Shown here piece by piece: positions 7,429 through 28,629 of a stretch of 64,000 nucleotides of DNA. The stretch spans positions 7,893 through 71,892 of the forward strand of contig JALWOY010000069.1 in NCBI GenBank assembly GCA_027083355.1, written 5' to 3'. The stretch comes from Phycisphaerales bacterium (GTDB lineage: Bacteria > Planctomycetota > Phycisphaerae > Phycisphaerales > UBA1924). A program made the translations under genes and the position numbers. Each line of letters opens with the position of its first letter. The first letter of the stretch is position 1. Below the pieces are notes generated by a model that saw nothing but the letters and a program-made list of their open reading frames with translations, had not been told where the DNA came from and ran no database searches.

Positions 7429-8310
7429 TCAGTCAACCCCCCCGGGGCCCTGTTTCTTTCGCGACCAAAGGCCCGCCGATTCTTTTCCTCCGCCGATCGC
7501 CGATGAGAGCCTGCCGAGCAGCGACCTGGCCCCGGCGATCTCCACCGCGGGCTCGCCCGATCGGCCCGGCATGGCGTCGAGTGCCTCGCGGGCGGAAGCG
7601 TACCCGAGGACAGGATCGAGCCCGCAGTCGATCCACTGCCGCCAGCGGGGCGGGACCATCCCGCCCACACGCGAGGCGAAAACGTCACGCTCGTCGGCGT
7701 CGATGCCCGTCAGCAGCGTCCACGCCAGCGAGACGATCGAACGGATCTCGTCCTGGATCGGCTCTTCGGCGGACTCGATCAACCCGGCCCGCCGGCGGAG
7801 GCCGTACAACTCGACGAGCAGCGAACCGCTGGGGTTGACGAGGATCTCGTCCTCGGCAACGGGGCCGTGCTCGACACCGGCGCGGTGCGACGCGGCCGCT
7901 GCTTCGAGCAGTTGCTCGATGGCCCGGTCGGTCTCGATGGCCGAGAGTCGGCCGCCGCGTCGGGCGCGCAGATCGGCGAGCGTGACGATCGATTCCTGAT
8001 TGCCGGGATATGGCGAGGAGGCCCAGATCAGGCCGTCGCGCTCACGACCGGCCTGCTCGATGGCGAGCACGTGCGGGCGTTGCGCCCCGACGCAGAGACG
8101 GAGCGCCTGCCAGATCTTCTCGCGGTCTTCGCTCGGGGATTGGTCGAAGACGTAGACCAGTCGGTCGACACCCCGGCGGTGGTCGTGTCCGAGAAACCGC
8201 CTCGCGAGTGTGTGCCTGTCGAGTTCACGGACGATCCCCGCGCCGCCGATGGTTTGCCCCACGAGCGTCGATCCGCCCTCGCCATTCATCGTCGCATTCA
8301 GTCGCGTCAT
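7429..8310 (-). CDS. protein-kinase-like fold protein, probably a pseudokinase
   Basis: 293 aa with a kinase-like layout (G-rich loop GQTIGGAGIV; HRAGVEHGPVAEDEILV in place of HRDLKPxN; ELYGL in place of DFG). Catalytic Asp/Lys signatures are degenerate. Confidence 0.45.
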   Translation of the reverse strand: MTRLNATMNGEGGSTLVGQTIGGAGIVRELDRHTLARRFLGHDHRRGVDRLVYVFDQSPSEDREKIWQALRLCVGAQRPHVLAIEQAGRERDGLIWASSPYPGNQESIVTLADLRARRGGRLSAIETDRAIEQLLEAAAASHRAGVEHGPVAEDEILVNPSGSLLVELYGLRRRAGLIESAEEPIQDEIRSIVSLAWTLLTGIDADERDVFASRVGGMVPPRWRQWIDCGLDPVLGYASAREALDAMPGRSGEPAVEIAGARSLLGRLSSAIGGGKESAGLWSRKKQGPGGVD

Positions 8311-8666
8311 GCCCCGTCGGTCCCCTCGGCCCGGGCGCGTGCAGCGTCCGGAATCCGGTCGTTCACCCCGTCCGTGTCATCGGTGACATCGGCGAAGTGC
8401 ACAATTTCAGCACAACAGTGTAGGGGTTTGGGAAAGGACGGGCGATGCCCGATCATTCCACGAACTCACAACCGCCTGAGCCGATCAACCGGCTGGTAAT
8501 CCGGACCACGGCAGGGGCAACAACCCGCCGAGGAATCCGGAGATCGGCCGCGCGGAAAAAATTCAAACAAAAACCGCAACTCCGCGGCTCCGCCCCGGTA
8601 GATCCGATGCCGGTGATCCATTTTCCGATTATACTGTCACACCGGACGACAGCAGGAGGTGCAGCA

Positions 8667-9788
8667 ATGAACAATCACTTCTCGCGTGCATTCACACTCA
8701 TCGAGTTGACGATCGTTGTGGCCATCGCCCTCATGGTGGCCGCGGTGGTCATGCCGGCGACGGGCGTCATGCGGACCGAGGCCCGGCTGGCGGGGTCGCG
8801 GGACAACCTGCGGCAGATCGGCAAAGCCGCCGGGCAATATTCGGCGGCTTCCGATGATCTGATCGCGGGCTATTCGTGGCGGGTCGACCCGGGTGATTTC
8901 AGTTCGAACGGTTTCCCGGGGAAAGATTTCGATATCGGTGGCGAGATAGAGACCGCGCACGACACGCTGGAGGCCACCCAGTTCCAGAAGGCCGCGATCG
9001 CCCGGAAAGCCACCGGGCGTATTTCCACATACGGGGTGGAAAAATTGCCGGTTGATGACAATCGCGTGCCGCACCGGCGGTTCTCTCTGCTCCCTTTGAT
9101 CGACTGGCTGGGCGGAACGCTGCCCGACCCGATCATGCTCAGCCCGCTGGATCTGTCGCACCAGGCCTTCCAGCAGAACCCGTACGACCTGCATTCCCTG
9201 CCCGGCGGAGACCCGCAATTCATCGAGGCCGATCAGAGTTGGGCGTTCAGCAAAATCGTCAAATATTGGCCCTACGCGTCGAGCTACCAGACCACGGTTT
9301 ATGCGTTCTCGAGGAGCCGGCCGGATCAGAACGGCGATCTGCCGATCGTGCCCTATTCGGATGGAACACTATCCCAAATCGACGATACCAGTACCTTCAG
9401 GCAGCAGAGCCTGACCGACGTGGCGTACCCCTCGCACAAGGCGTTCCAGTTCGAGGAGTTCGACTATTCCCACGGTCTGGGCAATGAGGGGCTGTACTAC
9501 GCCGACCCCGCCGCGAGCATCAATGTGCTTTTTTTCGACGGGTCGGCCCGGCAAATCGATACGTCCGACGCCAACCCGGGATGGGACCCGAGCGATCCCT
9601 GCGACATGAGCAAGTCGGCCCATTTGCTCTACAGATCCATCGACACCCGGTACTTCCGCGTTTACAGCGACTTCGGCGTCCCGAACGGCGAGACATTCAT
9701 GGCCGGGTATTACAAGTGGACCCGCGGCGGCCTCTTCGGCATCGACGTCGGCGGGGGGGAAGTCAACACGAGCGGGTGGTGTCAGTGA
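8667..9788 (+). CDS. prepilin-type N-terminal cleavage/methylation domain protein (DUF1559-like pseudopilin-like)
   Basis: Start at ATG 8667 after aggagg. MNNHFSRAFTLIELTIVVAIALMV... is a class III signal peptide; C-terminal ...NVLFFDGSARQI resembles the H-X9-DG region. Confidence 0.8.
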   Translation: MNNHFSRAFTLIELTIVVAIALMVAAVVMPATGVMRTEARLAGSRDNLRQIGKAAGQYSAASDDLIAGYSWRVDPGDFSSNGFPGKDFDIGGEIETAHDTLEATQFQKAAIARKATGRISTYGVEKLPVDDNRVPHRRFSLLPLIDWLGGTLPDPIMLSPLDLSHQAFQQNPYDLHSLPGGDPQFIEADQSWAFSKIVKYWPYASSYQTTVYAFSRSRPDQNGDLPIVPYSDGTLSQIDDTSTFRQQSLTDVAYPSHKAFQFEEFDYSHGLGNEGLYYADPAASINVLFFDGSARQIDTSDANPGWDPSDPCDMSKSAHLLYRSIDTRYFRVYSDFGVPNGETFMAGYYKWTRGGLFGIDVGGGEVNTSGWCQ

Positions 9789-11008
9789 TGCGCACAAGCA
9801 GACAGAACAGGAGCATTCCGATGACCATCAACACAAACATTCTCGGCGTCGTCTGCCTCGCCGTGCTCGCGCCCGTCGCGTTCGCCGATATCGAGCCGTG
9901 CGCTCCCGATTATTTCGCGACGATCGCGCCGGCCTCGTTCACGCGTGATGTCGAGATCGCCGGTGATTATCTCTACATCCTCGACGACACCGTCCTCGAA
10001 CAGGCCCAGACGGGGCTGCGGATTCTCGACATCTCGAACCCGGCGGCGCCGGTGTTCGTCGGGGCGTTCACCACGCCCGGGCAGGCGTCGGATATCGCGA
10101 TCGCGGGCGAGCGGGCGTACATCGCCGACGGCGGTATGGGGGGGCTGCTCGTGCTCGATATCTCCGACCCGGCCACGCCCGTGATGCTCGGCTCGCTGGA
10201 CACGCCCGGGGCGTGCCTGGCGGTGGACGTGGTCGGCACGACGGCCGTGGTCGCCGACGGGCATCTCGGCGTGCAGTTCATCGACGCGGCCAGCCCGGGG
10301 AGCATGTCCATCGCCTCCACGCTCGACACCGACGGGCTGGCGACCGACGTGCTCGTCGACGGCGACACCCTGTACGTCGCCGACCGGCACAACGGGCTGC
10401 TCGCCGTGGACATCACCGACCCGCTCAACCCCGCGATCACGGGGCAGGTGGGCACGCAGGGCGCCGCGTTCGGCCTGGCCCGCTCGCCCGTGGACGACTT
10501 CCTGTATGTCGCCGAGGCCGAGGGCGGGGTGATGCTGGCGGATGTCTCGATCCCCGGCTCGCCGGCGTTGATCACGGAATACAACACGCCGGGCACGGCC
10601 CGCGCGGTCGCGGCCTTCGGCACCGATGTCTATGTCGCCGACATGTACGGCGGGTTGCAGGTCCTCGACGCAAGCGATCCGATGTTCGTCGGGATCACCG
10701 ACACGTTCGCGACGGACGGCGCGGCGGCCTCGGTGGCGCTGATCGAGGGCACCGCGGGCGAGATCGCCTTCGTCGCCGACAACCAGGCCGGCGTGCAGAT
10801 TCTGAATCTTCAGCATTGCGATGACTGCCCGGCGGACTTCGCCTTCCCCTTCGGCATACTGGATCTTTTCGACGTCGACGCATTCATTCAGAGTTTCTAC
10901 CACATCGACAACGACGACCGGGCGGCGATGCTGGCCGAGCCGACCGATGTCGCGGATCTGGCGGATATCGTGGTGTTCCTGACGAGTTTCAACGCGGGGT
11001 GCCCGTGA
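9788..11008 (+). CDS. secreted LVIVD-repeat beta-propeller protein with C-terminal GC-type dockerin-like module
   Basis: ATG 9788 overlaps the upstream TGA (TGATG). Signal peptide is followed by about 7 repeats of G(L/V)xxxD(I/V)SxPxxP, which is LVIVD-type. The tail is CPADFAFPFGILDLFDVDAF...DLADIVVFLTSFNAGCP-stop. Confidence 0.75.
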   Translation: MRTSRQNRSIPMTINTNILGVVCLAVLAPVAFADIEPCAPDYFATIAPASFTRDVEIAGDYLYILDDTVLEQAQTGLRILDISNPAAPVFVGAFTTPGQASDIAIAGERAYIADGGMGGLLVLDISDPATPVMLGSLDTPGACLAVDVVGTTAVVADGHLGVQFIDAASPGSMSIASTLDTDGLATDVLVDGDTLYVADRHNGLLAVDITDPLNPAITGQVGTQGAAFGLARSPVDDFLYVAEAEGGVMLADVSIPGSPALITEYNTPGTARAVAAFGTDVYVADMYGGLQVLDASDPMFVGITDTFATDGAAASVALIEGTAGEIAFVADNQAGVQILNLQHCDDCPADFAFPFGILDLFDVDAFIQSFYHIDNDDRAAMLAEPTDVADLADIVVFLTSFNAGCP

Positions 11009-12487: not shown

Positions 12488-13447
12488 ATGAATCTCACGA
12501 TACACGCAGCCGTTCTGGTTTCGACGGGGGTCGTGATCACGTCCGTGCCGGCTCACGCCGACGAAATCACGATCGCGCCTTCCCGGGACGTCACCTTCAA
12601 CGAGGACACGTTCGGCGACAGCGGGAACGGCTCGGGCGAATATCTCTTTGCAGGCAGAAACGCCGTCGGCAGCCGCAAGCGGTCGATTCTCTTTTTCGAC
12701 ATCGCCTCGGCGTTGCCTGCGGGCGCGACCGTCGAGAGCGTCACGCTGACGTTGCACTGCAGCCGGACGTCGAGCGGGCTGCGGAGTGTCGGGCTGTACG
12801 CCGCGTTGGCGGACTGGGGCGAGGGCGCGTCGAACCCGCCCAACAACGAAGGCTCGGGCGGTCCGGCGGCCGAGAACGACGCGACTTGGATCTACCGCTT
12901 CTTCGTCCCCGGCGGGCAAGGCCCGACATGGAACACCCCCGGCGGGGATTTCCTCCCCGCCGCCAGCGCGGTCACGAGCGTCGGGAGCGAGGGGCAGTTC
13001 TATTCATGGTCGTCCGCCCAGATGGCCGCGGACGTGCAGGGGTGGCTCGACGACGCGTCGAGCAATTTCGGCTGGTTCGTCGTGGGGACAGAAACCCAGA
13101 CGCGGACGTCGAAGCGGTTCGACAGCCGGACCAACCCGGATCAATCATTCCGGCCTTCGCTGACGATCGTGTATTCCGCAACGGGCCCTTGCCCGGCTGA
13201 TGTCGCCGAGCCGTTCGGGGTGCTCGATCTGGCCGATGTGCAGGCGTTCATCGCGGCGTTTGTCTCGGGCGATCCGCTCGCTGATATCGCCGACCCGTTC
13301 GGGGTGCTCGATCTGGCCGATGTGCAGGCGTTCATCGCGGCGTTTGTCTCGGGCGATCCGCTCGCTGATATCGCCGACCCGGCCGGGGTGCTCGACCTTG
13401 CCGATGTGCAGGCGTTCATCGCCTCGTTCACCGCGGGTTGCCCGTAA
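12488..13447 (+). CDS. secreted protein with DNRLRE-like N-terminal domain and triplicated GC-type dockerin-like tail
   Basis: MNLTIHAAVLVSTGVVITSVPAHA signal peptide. The ...RSILFFDIASALPAGATVESVTLTL....LYAALADWGEG... pattern resembles DNRLRE-type domains. The C-terminus has three FGVLDLADVQAFIAAF units and ends in AGCP-stop. Only the 3' third of the 736-aa track ORF is taken as real. Confidence 0.7.
   Translation: MNLTIHAAVLVSTGVVITSVPAHADEITIAPSRDVTFNEDTFGDSGNGSGEYLFAGRNAVGSRKRSILFFDIASALPAGATVESVTLTLHCSRTSSGLRSVGLYAALADWGEGASNPPNNEGSGGPAAENDATWIYRFFVPGGQGPTWNTPGGDFLPAASAVTSVGSEGQFYSWSSAQMAADVQGWLDDASSNFGWFVVGTETQTRTSKRFDSRTNPDQSFRPSLTIVYSATGPCPADVAEPFGVLDLADVQAFIAAFVSGDPLADIADPFGVLDLADVQAFIAAFVSGDPLADIADPAGVLDLADVQAFIASFTAGCP
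13205..13444 (+). repeat. 84-bp in-frame tandem repeat (2 near-identical copies plus 1 diverged copy)
   Basis: 13205-13288 and 13289-13372 differ at a single nucleotide (gag to gac). A third, diverged copy spans 13373-13444. Confidence 0.9.
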
Positions 13448-13476: not shown

Positions 13477-15444
13477 TCAGCCGGTCGCGTCCTGCTCGGT
13501 CTCGGACTCCGAATCGGCCCCGTTTTTCCGGAGTTGAACGTACCCGAGTCGGCTCGCCATGCTCTTGTAATCCAGCGGCGAATCGCCGTTCTGGGCCTCG
13601 TTGATGAGCCGGCGTGTCTCCTGAGACACAAGCCCGGCCTCGAATCGGCGGTAGTCCTCGATCGTCGGCGGGACCACCGCACGCACCCGTGCCAGCGCCA
13701 CCACCCGTGTCGCGGGCAACGCCACGGCGACTGTCGCTTTCTCCGGGGGCAGGCTGTCCGGCTCGGCACGCGGATCGACATCCTCGGCCACGGCGAAGAC
13801 CGCGTCCCTGAATGCCTTGTCGTCGGCGCGCGGATCCTGGAACGAGGTGAACGTCGCCGGTGTCAGGCCGTCCTTGAGCACGAAGATATTTTCACGGACG
13901 CGGACCGGGCTGTCGCTGTCGTCCTTTCGGAAAAGGTCCGTGACCGCGATCAGCCCGCCCTCGATCGCGATTCGGCGGTATTCGTCGATCTGCCCCGACA
14001 GTTGCTGGAAGGCCTTGAGCGATTTGACGTCGCGGACGAGTTGATCGCGGATATCGTCGACGCCGTCCGGGGGTGATTCGCCCCGGGCGTCGAGTACGGT
14101 GATGTAGTACCTGGCGCCGTCGCCGTCTGTCGCCACGGGGTCCGTGATCGGCAGCCCGATCTGCACGGGGATTGTGGAATCGGTGCCCACCCCGCGGACC
14201 AACACGGGCAGACGCGCCGTCGAGATTCTTTTGTTCCCCGCGCGGAAGCTCGCCCCGCCGATGCCGGGCAGCTGGCGGATCTCCGCGGGCGTGAGCCAGT
14301 GGTCGGTCCTCCGGATGATCGTCGGCATCGGGATCGTGATCCCGTGGCGATCCCTGACCGCGTTGATGAGGTCCTCGGCGATGCGCTCGTACGACGGCGG
14401 GGTCCAATCGTCGGGGACTTTGCGGTAGATACCCTCTTTCTCCAGCCCGCGCTGGGCGGCGAGGATCTCGCCCCGGATCAGCTCGTCCGCCTCGGACATG
14501 ATCTGCGTGACGGTCTCTTGTTTGATCTGGTTTTCGAGTTCGGCGCGGGCCTCGTCGAACGGGGTGCCGTCGCCCTTTTCCTGCCAGCGGCGTCGGACGA
14601 GCACAGGGTCTGGCGTGACCGACTCGGCGATCTTCCTCGGGTCGAGCACGAGCCACTCGAGCTTGATCCGTGCCGGCAGGAGATACCCGAAGCCGTACTC
14701 GTTGGCCTCGGTGTCGCCGGGGCGGGTGTTCTTGTACCGCTCGAGCTGGGCGGCGAGTTCTTCATCGGAAGGCTCGGGGATGTCGGCCAGGAGCAACTCG
14801 GGCCCGAGGACCAGCTGATCGGTCAGGACGCGTGTCGCCATGTCTTCCATCGCGCGAATGGCGCGTTGCTCGCTCAGCCTCGGGGCCGAGTCGTACAGCC
14901 TCCGCAGCCGCATGACGCCCCGGGCCTCGGACATGATCTGGTCGAACGTATCGCTGTTGAGGAAGCGGTTTCCGCGCATCATCGAGAGGCGTCTCTGCTG
15001 CAGACCCTTCGTGGTGGCGTCGATCATCTGGTTGACTTCGTCGGCGGTGAACCGCTGCCCCTGCCGGCGGGCGAGCTCGACCTGCGAGATCACGAGCCCG
15101 TAGGCCAGCTCGGGGATCCAGTCCTCGCCGTCCTGCTGAACCCCCATCACGCCGAGCCTTTTCGCCTCGTGCTTGAGCAGGAGCCAGTGGGCGGTTTTGT
15201 TGTCCGGGTCGATGTGCAGCAGCGTCAGCAGCTCGGGCAGGAACCGTTCGAGCACGTCCAGCTCGACATTCGCCCGCACCTGCTCGCCGAGGGTGATCTT
15301 CTGATCCCCGATCATCGCGACGGCTCGCTTGTTCGGGTCGGGCGTCAGGCTCTTGAGCACCGGCTGGAGCAGGAACACGACCATCAGCAGCGACCCGCCG
15401 ACGGCCAGGAGGATCAACTGGTATTTCCGCAGAAACTTGAGCAT
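13477..15444 (-). CDS. periplasmic chaperone, PpiD/SurA-like
   Basis: MLKFLRKYQLILLAVGGSLLMVVFLL membrane anchor followed by a long soluble domain. This is the N-terminal layout typical of PpiD-like proteins. Start placed at ATG 15444. Confidence 0.5.
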   Translation of the reverse strand: MLKFLRKYQLILLAVGGSLLMVVFLLQPVLKSLTPDPNKRAVAMIGDQKITLGEQVRANVELDVLERFLPELLTLLHIDPDNKTAHWLLLKHEAKRLGVMGVQQDGEDWIPELAYGLVISQVELARRQGQRFTADEVNQMIDATTKGLQQRRLSMMRGNRFLNSDTFDQIMSEARGVMRLRRLYDSAPRLSEQRAIRAMEDMATRVLTDQLVLGPELLLADIPEPSDEELAAQLERYKNTRPGDTEANEYGFGYLLPARIKLEWLVLDPRKIAESVTPDPVLVRRRWQEKGDGTPFDEARAELENQIKQETVTQIMSEADELIRGEILAAQRGLEKEGIYRKVPDDWTPPSYERIAEDLINAVRDRHGITIPMPTIIRRTDHWLTPAEIRQLPGIGGASFRAGNKRISTARLPVLVRGVGTDSTIPVQIGLPITDPVATDGDGARYYITVLDARGESPPDGVDDIRDQLVRDVKSLKAFQQLSGQIDEYRRIAIEGGLIAVTDLFRKDDSDSPVRVRENIFVLKDGLTPATFTSFQDPRADDKAFRDAVFAVAEDVDPRAEPDSLPPEKATVAVALPATRVVALARVRAVVPPTIEDYRRFEAGLVSQETRRLINEAQNGDSPLDYKSMASRLGYVQLRKNGADSESETEQDATG

Positions 15445-15524
15445 GTGGCAAACCCTGTCTGAGTGTCCCGGGGCGAGCACACAGTGTAGATCGCCCGACC
15501 GCCCCCCACCACGGCTCGCCGGAG

Positions 15525-15871: not shown

Positions 15872-16903
15872 TCAATCGATTGTTTCGACGAGGTGGGTCC
15901 AGTCATGATCCACCGAGGTGTCGGTCGGCATCGCCGCTCGAATGCCGACGTTGGACATCCCGGCAGGAACTTCGTCCGGGCGCCACCCGAAGATCTGGTC
16001 GTGCACGCTGATGCCGTTTTTCGCCCGGATGAACGCGCCGTGCCCGTCGGAATAGATGAAGTTCGCGCCGGCCGTGCCGTGGTTGTCGACCTCGGCGTAC
16101 CGGCTCTCGGGGTCGTAGCCGACGCGCTTGCGGATGTCGTCGGACTGGTCTTCCCACCACGCCTGGATCACGTCCTTGCTGTCGGTTTCGTCGCCCCAGA
16201 TCGGGATGGGGACGGGGTACTTCCCTTCACCATACTGCAACCCGGCGACATAGAGATAGCTGACGTTGTAGTGGATGACGTCCAGTTCAGAGCCCGGGGC
16301 CTCCGGGGTCTTCATCGTGTTGTTCGCCAACGCCCAGTCGTAGTCGTTCTGATTGCCGTAGTTCGCACCGTAGTACATATCGCTCTTGTCCGAAGGACAG
16401 GTCAATACGCCGTAGCCGTCGGTGTACGAATCGAGAAGGGGAACATCGTTGCCGTCGTGATAGGCTCCGAACGGGGGCACGCCGGGGTTCGCGGCCGCAC
16501 CGAGACCGATGAATCCACGGTCGCCTTCCGGAACCTGGTCGTAACCCCTGAACTCGGCGTCGCCGACCTGGAAGAGGCTGAACAGCCCCGCGACCCCGCC
16601 GTAGATTTCTTGGTCGCGCAGCACGCGCGACAAAGGATCACCGTCCACCGTTCCGGCTATGAAATCGTGCTCGGCACCCCCTCCCCTCTGCATCGGCATG
16701 AGCGGGAACCAGTCCTTGTTGTCGAGGGCGTACGAGCTCATCATCGTGCCTACTTGCCGCTCATTTGCGAGGCACGCGGTCCGTTGAGCAGACTCCCGCG
16801 CCTTGCCCAGCGCCGGGAGCAGGATCCCGATCAGCAACGCGATGATCGCGATCACCACGAGGAGTTCGATCAAGGTGAATCCCGTCTTCGTGAGTCGTTG
16901 CAT
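15872..16903 (-). CDS. prepilin-type N-terminal cleavage/methylation domain protein (DUF1559 / H-X9-DG type)
   Basis: [39 protein letters not shown]... and C-terminal ...[18 protein letters not shown]. Confidence 0.85.
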
Positions 16904-17535: not shown

Positions 17536-19611
17536 ATGACACGAACCCACACTCTCTGCGCGGCACTTCTTGCCGCCTCCGCCGGCCTCGCGATCGCGCA
17601 GCCCGTGATCGACGGCGTGTACGACGACGCGACCGAGAACCAGTTCTACGGGCCGATCCGGTGGGTCAACACCGTCCCGACGGGGTTCGGCGACAACGTC
17701 GCGGGCATGTTCAACGGGGGCAACTTCGGGGACCCCGAGAACGTGACCACCGGTGTCGAGTTCAGTATCCCCAAGTCCGCGTTGGGCAACGCGACCTCGT
17801 TCCGGCTCGCCGGCTGGGTGACCTCGGGCGACCGCTCGTTCATGTCCAACCAGATCATCGGGTCGCTGCCGATCGACACGACGAACATCGGCGGGGCCCC
17901 TGATTTTTCTGACGAGGTGCGTTTCCCCGGGCATCAGTTCATCGACGTGAGCAGCATCCCCACCGCCACGATCGTCGTCGACGGCTCGGCCGACGCGGGC
18001 TACGGCGCCGCGATCTTCACGCAGATGAACTACACCGGGTTCGGGGACAGCCAGGACGGCACCGACATCGGCGGCGGCGGTTCCGAGATCGACCAGGTCT
18101 TCATCGCCCAGGACGCCAACAACTATTACTTCATGATCGCGGGCAACCTCGAGGCCAACGGCAACGGGCTGGACCTGCACATCGACGTGGACGGCGACGC
18201 GAGCGGCGCGGCCGCCACGGGGACCGGCTCGGGCAGCGGCGCGTTCATCGTCGACAACCCCGGCGTGACGTTCGACAGCGGCGCCGGCTCCGCCGACACC
18301 TTCCGCCCCGACTACATCATCTCGATCGATTCGTTCGATGACGATGCCGACGGTGCGACGCCGAACGTGCCCCGCGCGTGGTACGGCGTGTACAACGGCG
18401 ACAACGCGCAGGTCGATCTGCTCGGGAACCTCGCCGGGTACGGCGCGGCCAACGGCGGCGCCCTGACCGGGGGCGACCCGGGTGTGCCCGCGGTGTCGCT
18501 CGCGGTCGACAACTCGAACGTGGCCGGCGTGATCGGGAGCCCGTCGCAGGCCACCCCCGTCTCGCCGGACGCCGACTGGGCCTACGGCTCGGAACTCGAC
18601 AACCTCCGCGCCAAGATCGTGCAGGACGGGAACAACAACAACCTGTACATCTTCATCGGCGGCAACTTCGAGGTGAACTTCAACAAGCTGAGCCTCTTCA
18701 TTGATTGCCAGCCCGGCGGTCAGAACAGCCTCGGCTTCGACACCAACGGCGATCCCGTTACCAACGTCGATATCTCCTTCGGTGCCCTCCAGAACCAGGC
18801 CGGGGTGACGTTCGAGCCCGACTTCCTCGCGGATTACTGGCTCGACATCAACACGGGTCAGGACGGCGGCTCGGGCAACCTCATCAACTTCACGGACGCG
18901 GCCGTTCTCCGCAGCAACGGCGCGCTCGTGGACCCGATCTCGGAGCTCCTGCTGGACTACGGCGCGTTCTTCGGCGGTGACGTGACCGACGGCCAGGGCA
19001 ACCCCGTGGGTTCCCCGGTCGAGCTGATGGACTTCTCCGGCCCGCGCGTCGACCTGCCCGGCAGCGCCAGCCTGTTCACCAACTATGCCCCGCGCATGAC
19101 CCAGATCGACTTCAGCAACCCGATCCCGGGCCTGATCAAGACCGCGATCGACAACTCCAATGTCGCCGGCGTGACGGACTCGACCGCGACCGATGCGGCC
19201 GCCCGCGCCGTCTCCACCGGCATCGAGATCTGCATCGACCTCGACGAGCTCGGCTGGGACGGTTCGCAGGACATCCTCCTCGCGGGGTGGATCGCCAGCG
19301 GCGGGTTCACGTTCGCCTCGAACCAGGTCCTCGGTGATTCCGCCGGGCCCGACAACCTCGGCAACGTCCCCGACATCGACTTCTCGGCGATCCCCGGCGT
19401 GCAGTACGTCAACCTGAGCGCCGCCGTGCAGGAAGGCTGCAACGCGGCCGACCTCGCCTCGCCGTTCGGGGTCCTCGATCTGGCCGATATCTCGGCCTTC
19501 ATCGCCGGCTTCACCTCGGCCGATCCGGTCGCGGACCTGAACAACGACGGCGTGTTCGATCTCTCGGACATCTCCGCGTTCGTCGCCGCGTTCACGGCCG
19601 GCTGCCCGTAA
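17536..19611 (+). CDS. large secreted protein with internally repeated domains and C-terminal GC-type dockerin-like module
   Basis: Start at ATG 17536 after agggag. MTRTHTLCAALLAASAGLAIAQP signal peptide. Domains recur (DNSNVAGV... appears twice; ...LAGW(V/I)(T/A)SG..F.SNQ..G appears twice). Tail is CNAADLASPFGVLDLADISAFIAGF...DLNNDGVFDLSDISAFVAAFTAGCP-stop. Confidence 0.75.
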   Translation: MTRTHTLCAALLAASAGLAIAQPVIDGVYDDATENQFYGPIRWVNTVPTGFGDNVAGMFNGGNFGDPENVTTGVEFSIPKSALGNATSFRLAGWVTSGDRSFMSNQIIGSLPIDTTNIGGAPDFSDEVRFPGHQFIDVSSIPTATIVVDGSADAGYGAAIFTQMNYTGFGDSQDGTDIGGGGSEIDQVFIAQDANNYYFMIAGNLEANGNGLDLHIDVDGDASGAAATGTGSGSGAFIVDNPGVTFDSGAGSADTFRPDYIISIDSFDDDADGATPNVPRAWYGVYNGDNAQVDLLGNLAGYGAANGGALTGGDPGVPAVSLAVDNSNVAGVIGSPSQATPVSPDADWAYGSELDNLRAKIVQDGNNNNLYIFIGGNFEVNFNKLSLFIDCQPGGQNSLGFDTNGDPVTNVDISFGALQNQAGVTFEPDFLADYWLDINTGQDGGSGNLINFTDAAVLRSNGALVDPISELLLDYGAFFGGDVTDGQGNPVGSPVELMDFSGPRVDLPGSASLFTNYAPRMTQIDFSNPIPGLIKTAIDNSNVAGVTDSTATDAAARAVSTGIEICIDLDELGWDGSQDILLAGWIASGGFTFASNQVLGDSAGPDNLGNVPDIDFSAIPGVQYVNLSAAVQEGCNAADLASPFGVLDLADISAFIAGFTSADPVADLNNDGVFDLSDISAFVAAFTAGCP

Positions 19612-20909: not shown

Positions 20910-21824
20910 TCAGTTCGAGAGCAGTTCGACCATCTTCAACGCCGCCGGGCCGGCCGACACGATCAGCACGACGGGGAAGATAAAAATCACCATGGGCAGC
21001 AGCAGCTTGATCGCCATCTTCTCGGCGGATTCCTCGGCGCGCTGGCTACGCATCTCGCGCATCGTCTCGGCGAATGTCCGCAGCGCGTCGGCGACCGAGG
21101 TGCCGAACCGGTCGGCCTGGCTGATGATCGACGACAGGCTGGCGAGGTCCTCGGCGCCGGAGCGTTCGGCCATGTTTTTGAGCGCCTCGGGGCGCCGCGC
21201 CCCGAGCAGCATCTCCAGATTCACAAGCGCCATCTCGTCGGCGAGGGCCGGGCTGGCTTCGCGCATCTCCTCGGTGGTCGCGTTCCACGCCTGATCAACC
21301 CCCATGCCCGCCGAGACGCAGACTTCGAGCAGGTCGATCGCGTTGGGCAGCGCGTCGCGGATCTCGCCCGTGCGTTTTTTCACCTTCTGAGACAGCACGA
21401 AGTTCGGGATCATCGTTCCGCCCGCGGCGCCGGCGACGACGATCAGCACGCCCATCGCCGTGCTGACCTCGAACTGCGTCACGGCGATGATCGACGCGGC
21501 CACGCCCACGATCAACGCGGTGATCTTGATCCCGAAGAACAGCTCGGCGACGCCACGCTGGTTGTACCCGGCCCGGGAGAGTGTCTGCCGGAGTTTCGGC
21601 GAAGGCCCTCCGAGCACGGACAGCCCCCCGATGCGCCCGAGCAGCTCGGCGAGCGGGTTCGGCTGCTCCTGTGGCGTCGAGAGCACCGCGCCGTCCGTGC
21701 GGATCTGCTTGAGCCTCGCGTCGAGCGTGCGGCGGCCGCGCCGGTTCGTCGCGATGATCATCGCGCCGGAGAGGGCGACGATCGCGAACACGGCCATGGG
21801 GATGAGCATCTCGGGTGGCAGCAT
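20910..21824 (-). CDS. tadC: Flp pilus assembly inner-membrane platform protein TadC (T2SS F family)
   Basis: 304 aa with N-terminal TM, GspF-like cytoplasmic domain and C-terminal TMs (...MAIKLLLPMVIFIFPVVLIV...). Lies downstream of tadB. Confidence 0.8.
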   Translation of the reverse strand: MLPPEMLIPMAVFAIVALSGAMIIATNRRGRRTLDARLKQIRTDGAVLSTPQEQPNPLAELLGRIGGLSVLGGPSPKLRQTLSRAGYNQRGVAELFFGIKITALIVGVAASIIAVTQFEVSTAMGVLIVVAGAAGGTMIPNFVLSQKVKKRTGEIRDALPNAIDLLEVCVSAGMGVDQAWNATTEEMREASPALADEMALVNLEMLLGARRPEALKNMAERSGAEDLASLSSIISQADRFGTSVADALRTFAETMREMRSQRAEESAEKMAIKLLLPMVIFIFPVVLIVSAGPAALKMVELLSN

Positions 21825-21845
21825 GATGATCCGTCCGTCCCTCCG

Positions 21846-22838
21846 TCAGTACTTGATGACCGCCATTTTGCCCATGGCCCACGAGCCGACGAACATGCTC
21901 GCGGCGCAGATCGCCAGCATGGTCTGGCCCATGTCGGTCTGGTACATGGGCTTGACGTATTCCGGGTTGATCACGTTGAGCAGCACGAACACGACCACGG
22001 GCAGCCCGAGGAGCATCTGCTTGCTCATCTGCGTCTGGGCGATCAGCACGCGGACGCGGCGGCCGAGCCGGAGGCGTTCGCGGATCACCTCGGCCAGCCG
22101 ATTCGTGGTCTCGGAGAGGTTGCCGCCGGCCTTGATCTGCACGGCGACCGAGGCGGCGAAGAGCTTGAGGTCCTGGCTCGTGTGCTTCTCGGCGACGTTG
22201 CGCAGGGCTTCTTCGAGGCTGACGCCCATCTCCTGCTGCTGCACGATGTCGGTCAGCACGCTCTTGACCGGCTCCTTCGATTCCTCGGCCGCGAGCGAGA
22301 GGCCCGCGATGACGGTGTGCCCGGCGCGGAGGGAGCGTGCGCACAGGTCGAGCGCCTCGACGAACTGGTCGTCGAATTTCGCCTCCTGCTTGTTGGCCTT
22401 CATCTTCACGCCGGTCCACATCAGATAGACCACGCCCGCGCCCGCCAGCAGCGAGCCCGGCGTGTGCCGCGTGAAGACCCACACGATGACGAAGGTGCCG
22501 ATCGCGGCGGCGGCGGCGATCATCAGCAGCGTCGGCACGGGTGTCTCGATCCCGGCGGCCTTGCACTTGGCCGCGATCGCCGCCAGCGGGGTCGACGCCC
22601 GCTTGCCCAACCCGGGCAGGACCGCCTCGAACTCGTGGCCGTCGTGGAAGAGCCGGACGACGCGTCCGCCCTCCTCGGCCTCGACCCCCGTCGCGTGCAG
22701 CCCGACCCGGCGTTTGACCAGCTCGGCGCGTTTGGACCGGCTCTGGAGCCAGAGCAGCCCGCCGATCGCCGTCACGCACATCACGAGCATGAACACGGCG
22801 CCGATGGCCAGCAGATCGACCGGGGTCAGCCCGCCCAT
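21846..22838 (-). CDS. tadB: Flp pilus assembly inner-membrane platform protein TadB
   Basis: Start at ATG 22838, sharing an ATGA-type overlap with the tadA stop. MGGLTPVDLLAIGAVFMLV... with GspF-like fold. The 52 upstream codons in the track ORF are rejected. Confidence 0.8.
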   Translation of the reverse strand: MGGLTPVDLLAIGAVFMLVMCVTAIGGLLWLQSRSKRAELVKRRVGLHATGVEAEEGGRVVRLFHDGHEFEAVLPGLGKRASTPLAAIAAKCKAAGIETPVPTLLMIAAAAAIGTFVIVWVFTRHTPGSLLAGAGVVYLMWTGVKMKANKQEAKFDDQFVEALDLCARSLRAGHTVIAGLSLAAEESKEPVKSVLTDIVQQQEMGVSLEEALRNVAEKHTSQDLKLFAASVAVQIKAGGNLSETTNRLAEVIRERLRLGRRVRVLIAQTQMSKQMLLGLPVVVFVLLNVINPEYVKPMYQTDMGQTMLAICAASMFVGSWAMGKMAVIKY

Positions 22839-24211
22839 CACGCGGCCCCCTTCTTCGGCTTGACCATGCGGATCTGCGCCGTGGCGCTGGTCCTGGGCTT
22901 GCCGGCTTCGAGCTTGCCCTTGTGGAACAGCTCGTCGGGCAGCTCGTGGCCCTCGGCGCGCAGATGCTCGAGCACCTTCGGCCGCACGCCGCACGATTCG
23001 TGGTAGCCCTCGGCGTTGCCGTCGCTGTCGATGCCGGTCTGGACGAACCGGAAGATGTCCTGGAGCAGCACGACGTCGGACTCCATGCCGGTGATCTCGC
23101 TGATCGCGGTGACTTTGCGTCGCCCGCCCGTGAGCCGGTCGGCGTGCACAAGCAGCTGGACCGCCGACGAGATCTGCTGTCGGATCGTGCTGATCGGGAA
23201 ATCCAGCCCGGCCATCGAGACCATGCTTTCGAGTCGGCGGATGGTGTCGCGGGTGCCATTGGAGTGCAGGGTGGTCATGGAACCGTCGTGCCCGGTGTTC
23301 ATCGCCTGGAGCATGTCGAGCGCCTCGCCGCCGCGCAGCTCGCCGATGACGACGCGGTCGGGGCGCATCCGCAGGGCGTTTTTCACGAGGTCGCGCTGCG
23401 TGATCAGCCCCTTGCCCTCGACGTTGGCTGGCCGGGTTTCGAGGCGGACGACGTGCTCCCGCTGGAGCCGCAGCTCGGCGGCGTCCTCGATCGTCAGCAC
23501 CCGCTCACCCTCGGGGATGCACCGGCTGAGGCAGTTGAGCAGCGTCGTCTTGCCCGAGCCCGTGCCGCCGGAGATGATGATGTTCAGCCGGCCCGCGACG
23601 GCCGCCCGGAGGAACTTCATCATCTCGGGGGTCATCGCCCCGACCTCCATGAGCTTCTCGAGCGTGAAGGGGATGTTGCCGAACCGGCGGATGGAGACGC
23701 TGTGCCCGTCGAGCGCCAGCGGGGAGATGATGGCGTTGACGCGCGAACCGTCGGCGAGCCTCGCGTCGAGCATCGGCGTGCTCTCGTCGACGCGCCGCCC
23801 CACGCCCGAGGCGATCCGCTGGATCACCGTCAGCAGGTGCTCGTTGTCGCGGAATGTCACATCCGAGAGAATCAGCCGGCCCTTTTTCTCGACGTAGATC
23901 TGGTGCGGGCCGTTGATGAGGATGTCGCTGATGTCCGGGTCGCGCAGGATGTCTTCCAAAGGCCCCAGCCCGAAAATGTCGTCCATGACCTGCGTGACGA
24001 GGCGTTCCTTCTCTGTCGCCGAGAGCGGCTTGCCCTCCCCCTTCAGCAACGCCTCCACCTTGCCGGCACACTCCTTGCGAAGCTGCTCCTGCGGCAGCTC
24101 ACGCGCCTGGTTCAGGTCGATCGATTCGAGCAGCCGGCGGTGGATCCGTGATCGGAGATCGCCGCCCCCGGCGCCCGGTTCACCGTTGGATGTATTGGGC
24201 GTCTGGCTCAT
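22838..24211 (-). CDS. tadA: Flp pilus assembly ATPase CpaF/TadA
   Basis: Walker A GGTGSGKTTLLN, Asp box, Walker B and His box (...TGHDGSMTTLHSN...). Confidence 0.92.
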   Translation of the reverse strand: MSQTPNTSNGEPGAGGGDLRSRIHRRLLESIDLNQARELPQEQLRKECAGKVEALLKGEGKPLSATEKERLVTQVMDDIFGLGPLEDILRDPDISDILINGPHQIYVEKKGRLILSDVTFRDNEHLLTVIQRIASGVGRRVDESTPMLDARLADGSRVNAIISPLALDGHSVSIRRFGNIPFTLEKLMEVGAMTPEMMKFLRAAVAGRLNIIISGGTGSGKTTLLNCLSRCIPEGERVLTIEDAAELRLQREHVVRLETRPANVEGKGLITQRDLVKNALRMRPDRVVIGELRGGEALDMLQAMNTGHDGSMTTLHSNGTRDTIRRLESMVSMAGLDFPISTIRQQISSAVQLLVHADRLTGGRRKVTAISEITGMESDVVLLQDIFRFVQTGIDSDGNAEGYHESCGVRPKVLEHLRAEGHELPDELFHKGKLEAGKPRTSATAQIRMVKPKKGAA

Positions 24212-24214
24212 ACG

Positions 24215-25402
24215 TCACGCGGCCCTTCGACGGGCCTTCCTCCCTTTGTTCCGCTTCGATCCCGGTTGCTCCTCGCCGCGGATACGGCGCGCCAGCAGCA
24301 CGATCTGCTTTCGCAGCTTCGATTTCGGGCAGGAATCGAGCAAAGGCTCGCCCGCGTTGAGCGACCGCATCGCCGCGCCCGGGTCGTCCGGCAACGGCAC
24401 GATCTCGCCGGCGAACTCCAGCGTTTCGGCCGCCTCCTTCAGCGTGATCGGTTTGCCCGCGCCCCGGCACCGGTTCGCGACGACGTGCACCGGGGTCTCG
24501 ATGCCCAGCGACGAGACCGCCCGCAGCAGCACCCGCGCGTTGTGCAGGTCCTTGACCGTCAGCTGCATCACGATGATCACCCCGGTCGAATTCGCGGCCA
24601 GCGCCCCCATCGCCTCGAAAGGCAGAGCCGGCGCATCGATCACCGTCGCCGGGAAACCCGACCGGAGCACCCCCAGCACGTCGGCGATCTCGTCGAGGTA
24701 GAGCGGCGACGGCTCCGTGAAGTTGATCGCGGACGGGCTGAGCAGCACCCCGACACGATCCCCGCGGGAAACCGCCGTCGAGCGGACAAGCTCGATATCC
24801 AGCGGGCCCTCGCGCGCCAGGATATCCGCCAGCCCATAATCGCCCTTGATGCCGAGGTGGGTCCCCACGCCGCCGAAGCGGGTGTCGAAATCGACCACGA
24901 GCGCCCGCTGCGAGGCCAGTTCCCCCAGCTCGGCCGCCAGGTTCACCGCGAGCGTCGTCGCCCCGCACCCGCCACCCGCCGAGAGCACCGTAAGCACGGC
25001 CCCGCACGACGCGGAAGACGCCCCGCCGATCTGGTCGACCAGCTCGCGGCAGATGGGCACAACGTCCGGGCCGATCCAATCCCTCGGCAGGAAGTGCCTC
25101 GCCCCGGCCTGCATCGATTCGAGCAGCAGTTGCTTGTCGAACGCCGGCGCCACCACGACGAACCGGCAACGCGGGTGCGCATCGACCAGCTGCCCGACAT
25201 ACTCGAGCATCACGCTCGGCTCGGGCTCGATATCGATGATCACCAGCCCCGAGGCGTCCTGATCGAGCCGCTTTTCGAGATCGCGCATCGTCTCCAACTG
25301 CTCGATCGGGAGCAGCCGCGGATCGTCGCCGAACGCGCCGCTCAGCGCATCGACCACCCCGGGGTCGGTCGTCACCAGGATTGTGCCCGACGTTGTGCTC
25401 AT
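24215..25402 (-). CDS. tadZ: TadZ/CpaE-like localisation factor (receiver-like N-terminal domain plus MinD/ParA-like domain)
   Basis: 395 aa. The deviant P-loop SAGGGCGATTLAVNLA lacks the Walker lysine, as is typical for TadZ. Lies between cpaC and tadA. Confidence 0.75.
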   Translation of the reverse strand: MSTTSGTILVTTDPGVVDALSGAFGDDPRLLPIEQLETMRDLEKRLDQDASGLVIIDIEPEPSVMLEYVGQLVDAHPRCRFVVVAPAFDKQLLLESMQAGARHFLPRDWIGPDVVPICRELVDQIGGASSASCGAVLTVLSAGGGCGATTLAVNLAAELGELASQRALVVDFDTRFGGVGTHLGIKGDYGLADILAREGPLDIELVRSTAVSRGDRVGVLLSPSAINFTEPSPLYLDEIADVLGVLRSGFPATVIDAPALPFEAMGALAANSTGVIIVMQLTVKDLHNARVLLRAVSSLGIETPVHVVANRCRGAGKPITLKEAAETLEFAGEIVPLPDDPGAAMRSLNAGEPLLDSCPKSKLRKQIVLLARRIRGEEQPGSKRNKGRKARRRAA

Positions 25403-25453
25403 CGCCTCCGGATTCCGGTCTGGGTCCCGTGGAAACTCCCGGCCCGATCACCG

Positions 25454-26959: not shown

Positions 26960-26986
26960 CCGTGGCTCCTGTGCGAGAACCAGCGC

Positions 26987-27910: not shown

Positions 27911-28257
27911 CGCGGGACCTCCTTGCGCCGCCCCGGTTTGTGCGCACCCGGGGCGGACACTGGACCGATCGGCCCCGCGGGCGTCGGCCTTGACCGCTTC
28001 ACACAAACGCGCAGATCTACGCACAACCAGCCGTCGCGACCGGACTTTTCAACCCGCCCCGATGATCCGGAACCGGGGGGGCGTCCGATCAAACATGATC
28101 CCGCCTGCAACGGTTCCGGTAACACCGGAACGCCGGGAACCCGCACAAACCTGTTCAACCTCGATCTTTTTCTTGATCCGGGTTGCCGGATCACGCCGCC
28201 GGATCGGATCGTTTCATTGATGAGCACCCCGATATCGATCCGCCGAAAGGAACCCCG

Positions 28258-28629
28258 ATGCTCGGCCTGATCCACCAGATGCCCGCCGAGGCATATATCC
28301 CCTGGAGTTTCCTTTTCGCCGCGACCATGCTCGCGTCCGGTGTCGACGTGTTCGCCCGTCGGACATTCAATCCGGTCGTGCTCTGTGTCTGGTTCTTCGG
28401 CGTGACATTCTCGGGCCTCGTCGGCGGGTGGGGCGCCCCCGAGTTCGCCGCCGCGATGGTCATCCTCGTGACACCGCACCTGCTGATCTGCTCGTTCTCG
28501 GCACGGGGCCGGCAGCCGGAGACCGAGGAAACCGACAACGAACGTGTGCATGACGCCCTGCCGATCTCGATGGTGCCGCACATGGACCACGACGCCGACG
28601 CGGACAAGAGCTACCGCCGCGTGGCGTAA
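28258..28629 (+). CDS. small polytopic membrane protein, function unknown (first gene of the flp-side operon)
   Basis: High GC3 coding pattern. Three hydrophobic segments are followed by an acidic/His-rich tail. No family recognised. Confidence 0.4.
   Translation: MLGLIHQMPAEAYIPWSFLFAATMLASGVDVFARRTFNPVVLCVWFFGVTFSGLVGGWGAPEFAAAMVILVTPHLLICSFSARGRQPETEETDNERVHDALPISMVPHMDHDADADKSYRRVA

What the first reader, a model, noticed from the sequence alone, without database searches (positions are those of the whole stretch)
10826..11005. Shared C-terminal Cys...Gly-Cys-Pro dockerin-like module on three unrelated secreted proteins
Seen directly: three secreted proteins have unrelated N-terminal domains, namely an LVIVD propeller (9788-11008), a DNRLRE-like domain (12488-13447) and a 690-aa multi-domain protein (17536-19611). 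All three end with the same module at nt 10826-11005, 13190-13444 and 19438-19608. The module starts at a Cys (CPAD / CNAAD) and contains 2-3 copies of an EF-hand/dockerin-like repeat, (D/E)PFG(V/I)LDL(A/F)D(V/I)xAF(I/V)xxF. It terminates exactly with (F/N)(T/N)AGCP-stop. Established knowledge: dockerin repeats are Ca-binding cohesin-docking units, and I recall a GC-type dockerin domain annotation in public protein-family collections for planctomycete-like genomes. Inference: this is a surface-anchoring or sorting tag, and the flanking Cys pair suggests a disulfide clamp. The receptor (a cohesin-like partner, an envelope glycan or a secretion apparatus) is not identifiable here. Whether these are cargo of one of the two secretin systems in the window is an open question.
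Basis: partly seen in the sequence, partly recalled or inferred. Interest (0 to 1): 0.65.

Follow-up and report, generated by a model that had tools for sequence, protein, structure and literature searches.

The report
Shared GC-type dockerin-like protein tail
Three unrelated secreted proteins of a marine planctomycete end in the same small two-helix tail, which belongs to a catalogued but experimentally unstudied family (NCBIfam NF041540) that probably tethers many surface proteins to a receptor nobody has identified.

Summary
Three signal-peptide proteins with unrelated passenger domains share only a C-terminal module that starts at a Cys and ends in AGCP-stop (pairwise tail E = 6e-10 to 6e-19).

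The module is NCBIfam NF041540, "GC-type dockerin domain-anchored protein". P2 scores 61 bits and P3 38.8 bits against a cutoff of 29. P1 scores 20.1 bits and belongs to a conserved, divergent subtype at the edge of the model.

The family is large: 8,968 clusters at 50% identity, and at least 13–67 genes per genome in five marine Phycisphaerales MAGs, on at least 80 unrelated passengers.

The AlphaFold2 model is confident (pLDDT 93.6) and shows two loop-helix "F-hand" units. The best geometric match is a real dockerin (TM 0.49), but it is not significant.

The window's tails do not hit Pfam Dockerin_1. Most loops are a 13-residue "A-x-P-F-G" variant that lacks two canonical Ca2+ ligands.

The two Cys are coupled (odds ratio 31, p = 4e-5; fixed 55–56-residue span). 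They probably form a covalent version of the known dockerin N–C clasp.

No cohesin-like partner was found. I conclude this is a known kind of module, with a plausible anchoring role and an unknown receptor. Interest is modest.

The parts
9788..11008 (+). P1 gene: signal peptide (aa 1-33), LVIVD beta-propeller passenger, and a GC-type dockerin-like tail. Its ATG overlaps the stop codon of the upstream prepilin-like gene (8445-9788).
   Evidence: orthologues L009, L006 and L001
10826..11005 (+). P1 module (C347-P406). Repeat 1 (aa 349-370) has a PFG-type loop. The linker is longer than usual. Repeat 2 (aa 382-401) is divergent, with no Gly in the loop. The module ends FNAGCP.
   Evidence: NF041540 20.1 bits, below the cutoff of 29. 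The same subtype is conserved in 3 orthologues (24.3-30.4 bits) and in P0001 (31.7 bits). Tail identity is 61-63% against 46-62% for the passenger.
12488..13447 (+). P2 gene: signal peptide (aa 1-24), DNRLRE/CBM96-like passenger, and a three-repeat GC-type tail.
13190..13444 (+). P2 module (C235-P319). It has three PFG-type loop-helix repeats. An 84-nt tandem array (13196-13422, 2.7 copies, 95% identity) created the extra repeat.
   Evidence: NF041540 61 bits; TRF. Orthologues have 2 repeats. Only 1 of 202 family ORFs examined has 3 repeats.
17536..19611 (+). P3 gene: signal peptide (aa 1-21), a conserved all-beta passenger of about 610 aa with unknown fold family, and a GC-type tail. It belongs to an orthologue family widespread in Phycisphaerales.
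19438..19608 (+). P3 module (C635-P691). Repeat 1 has a PFG-type loop (DLASPFGVLDLAD). Repeat 2 has a canonical EF-hand-type 12-residue loop (DLNNDGVFDLSD). The module ends FTAGCP.
   Evidence: NF041540 38.8 bits. AF2 pLDDT 93.6 with helices at model residues 20-31 and 47-59. Orthologues have a PFG loop at repeat 2.

Best explanation
The three tails are copies of the GC-type dockerin-like module (NCBIfam NF041540).

Shown:
- The module is 57-58 residues long and sits at the extreme C-terminus of Sec-exported proteins.
- It is built of two loop-helix (F-hand-like) repeats.
- It is bracketed by a near-invariant Cys 3-4 residues before the first loop and by a final Gly-Cys-Pro.

Inferred:
- After export to the oxidising periplasm, the two Cys form a disulfide that ties the N- and C-ends of the module together. 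This would be a covalent version of the non-covalent "intramolecular clasp" that stabilises classical dockerins.
- The clasp may compensate for loops that have mostly lost two of the canonical Ca2+ ligands.

Inferred, with lower confidence:
- The folded module is a common docking handle. It would tether dozens of different secreted enzymes, propellers and binding proteins per cell, non-covalently, to one shared receptor on the cell envelope (a "planctosome"-like surface display).
- The receptor is not encoded recognisably in this window.
For: Identity: NF041540 hits on all three tails, two above cutoff. NCBI already names P3 homologues "GC-type dockerin domain-anchored protein".

Fold: the AF2 model has pLDDT 93.6, with two helices that start at loop positions 10-11 as in EF/F-hands. 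The best geometric PDB match is dockerin 6kg9 (TM 0.49/0.46, rmsd 3.0 A, 55 columns) and the other top hits are EF-hand proteins.

Link to dockerins: family member P0217 passes NF041540 (86.5 bits), Pfam Dockerin_1 (26.4 vs 22.9) and EF-hand_1. hhalign against verified CelS/CelD dockerins is in register (P = 0.014). Canonical D-x-N-x-D-G and PFG loops interconvert between orthologues of P3.

Disulfide clasp: both Cys are present in 185 ORFs, one only in 11, neither in 5 (odds ratio 31, p = 3.9e-5). The Cys-Cys span is 55-56 residues in 306 of 371 tails. Internal and tandem copies each keep a Cys pair. A dockerin N-C clasp that includes a C-terminal Pro is documented (PMC3821032).

Shared handle: there are 8,968 representative clusters and at least 13-67 module genes per genome. 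178 module genes carry 80 unrelated passenger clusters, including peptidases, glycosidase-like domains, CBMs and FG-GAP. About two-thirds of full-length members start with a signal-peptide-like sequence. The tail is conserved as well as or better than the passenger among orthologues. Near-invariant residues are shared across all paralogues, which suggests one common partner.

Precedent: a cohesin/dockerin "planctosome" has been hypothesised in planctomycetes (PMC6461901).
Against: - No cohesin was found. Pfam Cohesin is absent from every window protein scanned, and a clostridial cohesin HMM finds nothing in 16,856 ORFs of the window plus 72 loci.
- No neighbour family recurs next to module genes.
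- The window's tails do not reach Pfam Dockerin_1 at E <= 1.
- The PDB sequence search and Foldseek give no significant match.
- 241 of 392 tails have PFG loops in both repeats, without ligands at loop positions 3 and 5, so Ca2+-dependent docking is unproven.
- The module ends exactly at the stop codon in 166 of 202 ORFs. That strictness is more typical of sorting signals than of dockerins.
- There is no experimental work or publication on this family.
- The Cys-Cys distance could not be measured, because model coordinates are not exposed.
Confidence: 0.6

Rival explanations
1. The tail is an export or sorting signal, not an anchor. A secretion machine would recognise the folded, disulfide-locked C-terminal module in the periplasm and pass the cargo across the outer membrane. 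The machine could be a T2SS- or type-IV-pilus-like system such as the one with the giant secretin at 46783-60756, or it could involve the neighbouring pseudopilin-like proteins. This would be analogous in logic to the T9SS C-terminal domain.
For: The module is strictly C-terminal: it ends at the stop codon in 166 of 202 ORFs, and exactly one residue follows the last Cys in 345 of 371 tails. It forms a large lineage-restricted paralogous tag family on unrelated passengers, the distribution typical of sorting signals. T2SS-type systems export folded, disulfide-bonded proteins (established knowledge). The window has two secretins, a prepilin peptidase and pseudopilin-like genes. A prepilin-like gene is syntenic with the P1 and P3 orthologues in several genomes.
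Against: Internal and tandem copies exist (P0187 x5, P0217 x4, P0125, P0164, P0117), which a terminal signal would not need. The module has no TM helix, no basic tail and no conserved cleavage motif. It is helical, unlike the beta-sandwich T9SS CTD. Prepilin-like genes are not enriched near module genes overall (13 of 918). No linear or modular T2SS signal is known (established knowledge).
Confidence: 0.2
2. The module has no dedicated protein receptor. It could be a self-contained stabilising or oligomerising unit through which module-bearing proteins pair with one another. It could instead bind a non-protein envelope component such as a glycan, peptidoglycan or a divalent-cation-bridged polymer.
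For: No cohesin-like partner is detectable. The two repeats are nearly identical, so the module is internally symmetric, which could favour self-association. Several acidic loop residues are invariant (D5, D14, D17, D33, D42, D45) and could bridge cations to anionic polymers.
Against: The extreme conservation of the same surface across 80 or more passenger families is most simply explained by one specific partner. Nothing here tests self-association or glycan binding directly.
Confidence: 0.15
3. The resemblance is a chance or compositional artefact of an Ala/Asp/Leu-rich, high-GC genome.
For: The genome is about 66% GC and the tails are rich in Ala, Asp, Leu and Phe.
Against: Pairwise E-values down to 6e-19 use composition-adjusted scoring. 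There is a curated HMM match, and 2,534 representative proteins match at E <= 1e-10. The module is conserved across orthologues and the AF2 fold is confident.
Confidence: 0.01

Closest known systems
NCBIfam NF041540 "GC-type dockerin domain-anchored protein" (dockerin_GC)
   Same: This is the same module: C-terminal, starting at a Cys, with two loop-helix repeats and a terminal Gly-Cys(-Pro). P2 (61 bits) and P3 (38.8 bits) pass the curated cutoff. NCBI already gives this name to P3 homologues.
   Different: P1's tail scores 20.1 bits, below the cutoff of 29. It represents a conserved subtype with a longer linker and a Gly-less second loop. P2 has a rare third repeat. The family exists only as a database model: no publication was found and its function is untested.
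Classical type I dockerin (Pfam PF00404 Dockerin_1; e.g. C. thermocellum CelS 2MTE/1DAQ, C. acetobutylicum 6KG9)
   Same: Both are about 60-70 residues long, usually C-terminal, on secreted proteins with varied catalytic or binding passengers. Both have duplicated loop-helix F-hand segments with a D at loop positions 1, 9 and 12. Both join their N- and C-termini by a clasp that often involves a terminal Pro (PMC3821032). The best geometric PDB match is a dockerin.
   Different: The window tails do not match PF00404, and the profile-profile comparison gives only P = 0.014. Most loops are 13 residues (A-x-P-F-G) and lack the ligands at positions 3 and 5. The clasp is a Cys-Cys pair. The module ends exactly at the C-terminus. 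No cohesin was found. The organism is a planctomycete and the passengers are not cellulolytic.
"Planctosome" hypothesis (cohesin/dockerin proteins in freshwater Nemodlikiaceae; Andrei et al. 2019, PMC6461901)
   Same: Both concern planctomycete secreted proteins, including peptidases, that carry dockerin-type modules and are proposed to assemble on the cell surface.
   Different: That proposal rests on canonical cohesin and dockerin Pfam domains in a few proteins. Here there are dozens of proteins per genome, a Cys-clasped non-canonical module, and no detectable cohesin.
C-terminal sorting tags on large paralogous families (T9SS CTD, PEP-CTERM/exosortase, LPXTG/sortase)
   Same: The genomic logic is the same: one lineage-restricted C-terminal tag on many unrelated secreted proteins. 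P1 also gives a weak partial match to the "choice-of-anchor B" model (TIGR04312: 29.7 bits against a cutoff of 100, 68 residues). From my own knowledge of NCBIfam naming, "choice-of-anchor" passengers carry different C-terminal anchors in different lineages.
   Different: The module has no TM helix or basic tail, no sortase-type motif, and a helical fold instead of a beta-sandwich. Internal tandem copies exist.

Membership tests
NCBIfam NF041540 GC-type dockerin domain | HMM score at or above the curated cutoff (29 bits) | tested here: met
   P2 scores 61.0 and P3 38.8, so both are met. P1 scores 20.1, so it is not met on its own. P1's closest relative P0001 scores 31.7 and its orthologues score 24.3, 27.2 and 30.4, so P1 is a borderline subtype.
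NCBIfam NF041540 GC-type dockerin domain | Module at the extreme C-terminus, ending in Gly-Cys plus about one residue | tested here: met
   All three tails end AGCP-stop. Family-wide, 158 of 202 ORFs end GCP, and one residue follows the last Cys in 345 of 371 tails.
NCBIfam NF041540 GC-type dockerin domain | Paired N-terminal Cys at a fixed distance before the first loop | tested here: met
   The Cys are C347, C235 and C635. The N-terminal Cys lies 10-11 residues before the V-L-D-L anchor, and the Cys-Cys span is 55-56 residues in 306 of 371 tails.
Classical type I dockerin (Pfam PF00404) | Match to the Dockerin_1 HMM at the gathering threshold (22.9 bits) | tested here: not met
   None of the three proteins or isolated tails gives a hit at E <= 1. 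Only distant family members with canonical loops reach it (P0217, 26.4 bits).
Classical type I dockerin (Pfam PF00404) | Two canonical 12-residue Ca2+-binding loops (D-x-[DN]-x-[DN]-G-x-h-x-x-x-D) | tested here: not met
   Only P3's repeat 2 (DLNNDGVFDLSD) is canonical. P3's repeat 1, all three P2 repeats and both P1 repeats are not. Family-wide, 241 of 392 tails are PFG/PFG.
Classical type I dockerin (Pfam PF00404) | Two-helix F-hand fold similar to solved dockerins | tested here: inconclusive
   The AF2 model has two loop-helix units at pLDDT 93.6. Foldseek's best geometric match is dockerin 6kg9 at TM 0.49, but with E = 4.8.
Classical type I dockerin (Pfam PF00404) | A cognate cohesin partner encoded in the genome | tested here: inconclusive
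   No Cohesin Pfam hit in the window proteins scanned. A narrow clostridial cohesin HMM finds nothing in the window plus 72 loci. P3's passenger shows cohesins only among non-significant beta-sandwich hits. Whole genomes were not searchable.
Classical type I dockerin (Pfam PF00404) | Ca2+-dependent folding and binding | not testable with these tools
   This needs CD, ITC or NMR with and without Ca2+/EDTA.
TM-type C-terminal sorting signals (PEP-CTERM, LPXTG and similar) | Signature motif, then a hydrophobic TM helix, then a basic tail at the C-terminus | tested here: not met
   The tails end ...F-x-A-G-C-P with no TM segment. Only two unusual family members add a separate TM+RRK extension after the module.
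T9SS C-terminal domain | A beta-sandwich CTD of about 80-100 residues | tested here: not met
   The module is 57-58 residues and helical. There are no NCBIfam or Pfam T9SS CTD hits.

The most novel reading that the evidence does not exclude
The GC-type module is not a cohesin-binding dockerin. It would be the handle of an undescribed, Phycisphaerales-specific surface-display or export system: a disulfide-locked, largely Ca2+-independent F-hand pair. Its partner would be a non-cohesin receptor, or the secretion machinery itself, for example the pseudopilin-like proteins or the secretin with about 40 N domains. The system would organise 25-70 or more different exoproteins per cell.
Probability: 0.2. 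Interest if true: 0.65.

Novelty: new member of a known kind. Interest (0 to 1): 0.33.

Why it matters
Marine Phycisphaerales put this one tail on at least about 1% of their genes, covering peptidases, glycosidase-like enzymes, carbohydrate-binding modules and propellers. Whatever recognises the tail therefore organises much of how these abundant ocean bacteria present enzymes to their surroundings.

The family has a database name but no experiments. This analysis gives concrete handles for a first experimental study:
- a 58-residue consensus;
- a testable disulfide clasp;
- two loop types that interchange between orthologues, which argues that canonical Ca2+ sites are dispensable;
- a complete reference chromosome (CP060234.1) in which to search for the receptor.

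For annotation, it also shows that the P1 subtype falls just under the NF041540 cutoff and will be missed by automatic pipelines.

Tried and rejected
- Pfam Dockerin_1 and EF-hand models on the window's proteins and isolated tails: no hits at E <= 1.
- Profile search of PDB sequences with the family alignment: only a non-significant dockerin hit (2y3n_B, E = 1.4).
- Foldseek of the tail model against the PDB: nothing significant.
- Literature search for "GC-type dockerin": 0 papers. Searches combining dockerin, disulfide and Planctomycetota found nothing specific.
- The first homologous-protein run returned only fragments of 112 aa or less, so it said nothing about passengers. The exhaustive representative search solved this.
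I reran it with the 3-sequence alignment.
- Neighbour-enrichment clustering over 72 loci to find a receptor: only generic ABC ATPases and synteny-derived prepilin-like genes recur.
- P3's passenger as a possible cohesin-bearing adaptor: AF2 plus Foldseek gives no significant match.
- Clostridial cohesin HMM against all ORFs of the window plus loci: nothing.
- The look-up of encoding contigs neighbourhoods: uninformative.
- Chance or compositional artefact: rejected.

Full report
**1. Observation**

The window (about 66% GC) encodes the three ORFs exactly as described.
- P1 is 9788-11008, 406 aa.
- P2 is 12488-13447, 319 aa.
- P3 is 17536-19611, 691 aa.

Each begins with a Sec-type signal peptide (…AFA|D, …AHA|D, …AIA|Q) and ends …AGCP-stop.

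Full-length BLASTP shows that the tails are the only shared region, at 6e-10, 2e-12 and 6e-19.

The passengers are unrelated:
- P1 has five LVIVD repeats (1.5e-40), plus a partial match to "choice-of-anchor B".
- P2 has a DNRLRE domain (2.3e-17) and a weak CBM96 match.
- P3 has no Pfam or NCBIfam hit apart from the tail.

A six-frame scan finds no further copy in the 64 kb.

**2. Identity**

NCBIfam holds a curated model, NF041540 "GC-type dockerin domain-anchored protein", with a cutoff of 29 bits. P2 scores 61.0, P3 38.8 and P1 20.1.

P1 is not a decayed copy. Its unusual second repeat (a long linker, then LAEPxD[VI]AD[LM]ADI) is conserved in orthologues from three other genomes. Its tail is conserved at 61-63%, at least as well as the propeller at 46-62%. 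This subtype scores 24-32 bits, so it straddles the cutoff.

P2's orthologues have two repeats. The window's third repeat is a recent 84-nt tandem duplication at 95% identity. Only 1 of 202 family ORFs examined has three repeats.

P3 belongs to an orthologue family of about 670-700 aa that keeps at least 50% identity across many Phycisphaerales. NCBI already names some members "GC-type dockerin domain-anchored protein". No paper uses that phrase.

**3. Family anatomy**

An exhaustive HMM search finds 8,968 representative clusters (50% identity) at E <= 1e-3 and 2,534 at E <= 1e-10. The module is almost always at the extreme C-terminus.

A scan of species-representative genomes confirmed 192 stretches. 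The 72 loci kept come from five marine Phycisphaerales/Planctomycetota MAGs, including the complete chromosome CP060234.1. The window is syntenic with several of these loci at about 70-80% nucleotide identity.

In those loci I count 204 unique module ORFs, up to 8 per 20 kb. That gives lower bounds of 67, 61, 35, 25 and 13 module genes per genome.

The module ends exactly at the stop codon in 166 of 202 ORFs, and 158 end in GCP.

The consensus of the dominant 58-residue class is:

C-N-x-A-D-L-A-E-P-F-G-V-L-D-L-A-D-[IV]-x-A-F-[VI]-x-A-F-x3-D-P-x-A-D-L-A-x-P-F-G-V-F-D-L-A-D-[IV]-x-A-F-V-x-x-F-x-A-G-C-P

The passengers are very diverse. 178 module genes fall into 80 similarity clusters, 42 of them singletons. 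Pfam finds FG-GAP, PPC, subtilase, matrixin, GH-like, amylase-C, CBM6/96, BNR, FGE-sulfatase and other domains. About two-thirds of full-length representatives start with a signal-peptide-like sequence.

**4. Is it a dockerin?**

At the level of architecture, yes.
- AlphaFold2 predicts two loop-helix units with pLDDT 93.6.
- Each helix begins at loop position 10-11, as in EF/F-hands.
- The best geometric PDB match is the C. acetobutylicum dockerin 6KG9 (TM 0.49/0.46, rmsd 3.0 A over 55 columns). The other top hits are calmodulin-type EF-hands. No hit is significant.

At the level of family membership, no.
- None of the window's tails reaches Pfam Dockerin_1 at E <= 1.
- A family profile finds dockerin 2Y3N_B only at E = 1.4.
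- hhalign against verified CelS/CelD dockerins gives P = 0.014 (HHsuite probability 3%), although both loops align in register.

A bridge does exist. P0217 has four tandem Cys-flanked modules with canonical loops. It passes NF041540 (86.5 bits), Dockerin_1 (26.4 against 22.9) and EF-hand_1.

The main difference from classical dockerins is the loop. In 241 of 392 tails, both loops are a 13-residue D-L-A-x-P-F-G-V-L-D-L-A-D variant. It keeps the Asp at positions 1, 9 and 12 but lacks the ligands at positions 3 and 5. Another 78 tails have a PFG loop followed by a canonical loop, and 11 are canonical in both.

The window's P3 has a canonical second loop (DLNNDG), whereas its three orthologues have A-x-P-F-G at the same place. 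The two loop types are therefore interchangeable over short evolutionary distances. This suggests that canonical Ca2+ coordination is dispensable.

**5. The Cys pair**

- Both Cys are present in 185 ORFs, only one in 11, and neither in 5. Independence would predict about 0.5 with neither (odds ratio 31, Fisher p = 3.9e-5).
- The geometry is fixed. The N-terminal Cys lies 10-11 residues before the V-L-D-L anchor. The Cys-Cys span is 55-56 residues in 306 of 371 tails. Exactly one residue follows the last Cys in 345 of 371.
- Internal or tandem copies (P0187 x5, P0217 x4, P0125, P0164, P0117) each retain their own Cys pair. This argues for an intramodule disulfide and against a role for the terminal Cys in C-terminal processing.
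- Slutzki et al. 2013 (PMC3821032) showed that classical dockerins have an N-to-C "intramolecular clasp". It forms between residues just before the first loop and C-terminal residues, often a Pro, and it is needed for stability and cohesin binding.
- The Cys…Gly-Cys-Pro arrangement sits at exactly those positions. I therefore infer a covalent clasp.

**6. Function**

No partner was found.
- Pfam shows no cohesin in any window protein scanned.
- A narrow clostridial cohesin HMM finds nothing in 16,856 ORFs of the window plus loci.
- No non-module family recurs beside module genes, apart from generic ABC ATPases and prepilin-like genes. The prepilin-like genes are syntenic with the P1 and P3 orthologues, but only 13 of 918 neighbourhood genes are prepilin-like, so they are not enriched overall.
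- P3's passenger is a confident all-beta structure (pLDDT 83.4) without a significant PDB match. Cohesins appear only at E of about 1.5-2, among generic beta-sandwiches.

My best-supported reading is a shared, disulfide-clasped docking handle that tethers many exoproteins to one unidentified envelope receptor. This is conceptually like the "planctosome" hypothesised for freshwater planctomycetes (PMC6461901).

The main rival is an export or sorting signal for a T2SS- or pilus-like machine. In its favour are the strict C-terminal placement and the secretion genes in the window: a Tad cluster with a CpaC-type secretin, a prepilin peptidase, pseudopilin-like genes and a giant secretin. Against it are the internal tandem copies and the lack of any TM segment or cleavage motif.

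**7. Verdict**

The module is a known, curated but experimentally uncharacterised family. The three proteins are new members. One (P1) belongs to a borderline subtype, and one (P2) carries a rare third repeat.

Overall interest is modest. What remains of interest is the unidentified receptor and the apparent loss of canonical Ca2+ sites.

Noticed in passing
window 46783-60756 (-): A 4,657-aa ORF is a secretin with about 40 tandem Secretin_N (PF03958) domains (1,353 bits) followed by one C-terminal Secretin pore domain (residues 4423-4587, 2.7e-48). The N domains are not DNA-level tandem repeats, so the array is old. The genes just upstream in its operon (60757-63353) look weakly GspC- and PilM-like. 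A quick literature search found nothing on secretins this long.
   Followed up: partly
window 20910-31711: A Tad/Flp-type pilus cluster: two T2SSF (TadB/C), a CpaF-like ATPase, TadZ, a CpaC-type secretin (25454-26986), RcpC/CpaB, a prepilin peptidase A24 (29116-29838) and a TadG-like VWA protein (30158-31711). It lies directly downstream of P3, after a TPR protein and a lipoprotein.
   Followed up: partly
window 8445-9788 (+) and 15872-16903 (-): Two large (343-447 aa) proteins carry a prepilin-type N-terminal cleavage/methylation motif (GFTLIEL…). One has its stop codon overlapping P1's ATG. The other is divergent from P3. Both pairings are conserved by synteny in 3-4 other Phycisphaerales genomes. 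I could not determine whether this reflects a functional link with the GC-type proteins.
   Followed up: partly
L056 6537-7610 (+) and L053 12301-13521 (+): Two family members have the GC-type module followed by a Cys/Tyr/Gly-rich extension of about 60 aa, then a TM helix and an RRK(HT/QA) end (…ALTAGIAVAGAALMLGFGSFRRKHT). So a dockerin-like module sits upstream of what looks like a membrane-anchor or sorting signal. NCBIfam recognises only the dockerin_GC part.
   Followed up: partly
P0187 (USN99725.1, on CP060234.1), P0217, P0125, P0164, P0117: Some proteins have 2-5 internal or tandem Cys-flanked GC-type modules. One recurrent arrangement is a canonical module, then a PGG…GGDP linker, then a second degenerate Cys-rich module. 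P0217 is N/K/T-rich and may come from a different, low-GC lineage.
   Followed up: partly
window 13477-15480 (-) and 7429-8376 (-): Two conserved ORFs lie between or beside the GC-type genes and have no significant Pfam or NCBIfam family. One is 667 aa with an N-terminal TM helix. The other is about 315 aa.
   Followed up: no
window 17536-19437 (P3 passenger): The passenger of about 610 aa is highly conserved across Phycisphaerales (358 homologues at E <= 1e-10) and shows internal sequence echoes (e.g. …FRLAGWVTSGDRSFMSNQIIG… and …ILLAGWIASGGFTFASNQVLG…). It is confidently predicted as all-beta but has no Pfam family and no significant PDB fold match. It is a conserved surface protein of unknown function.
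   Followed up: partly
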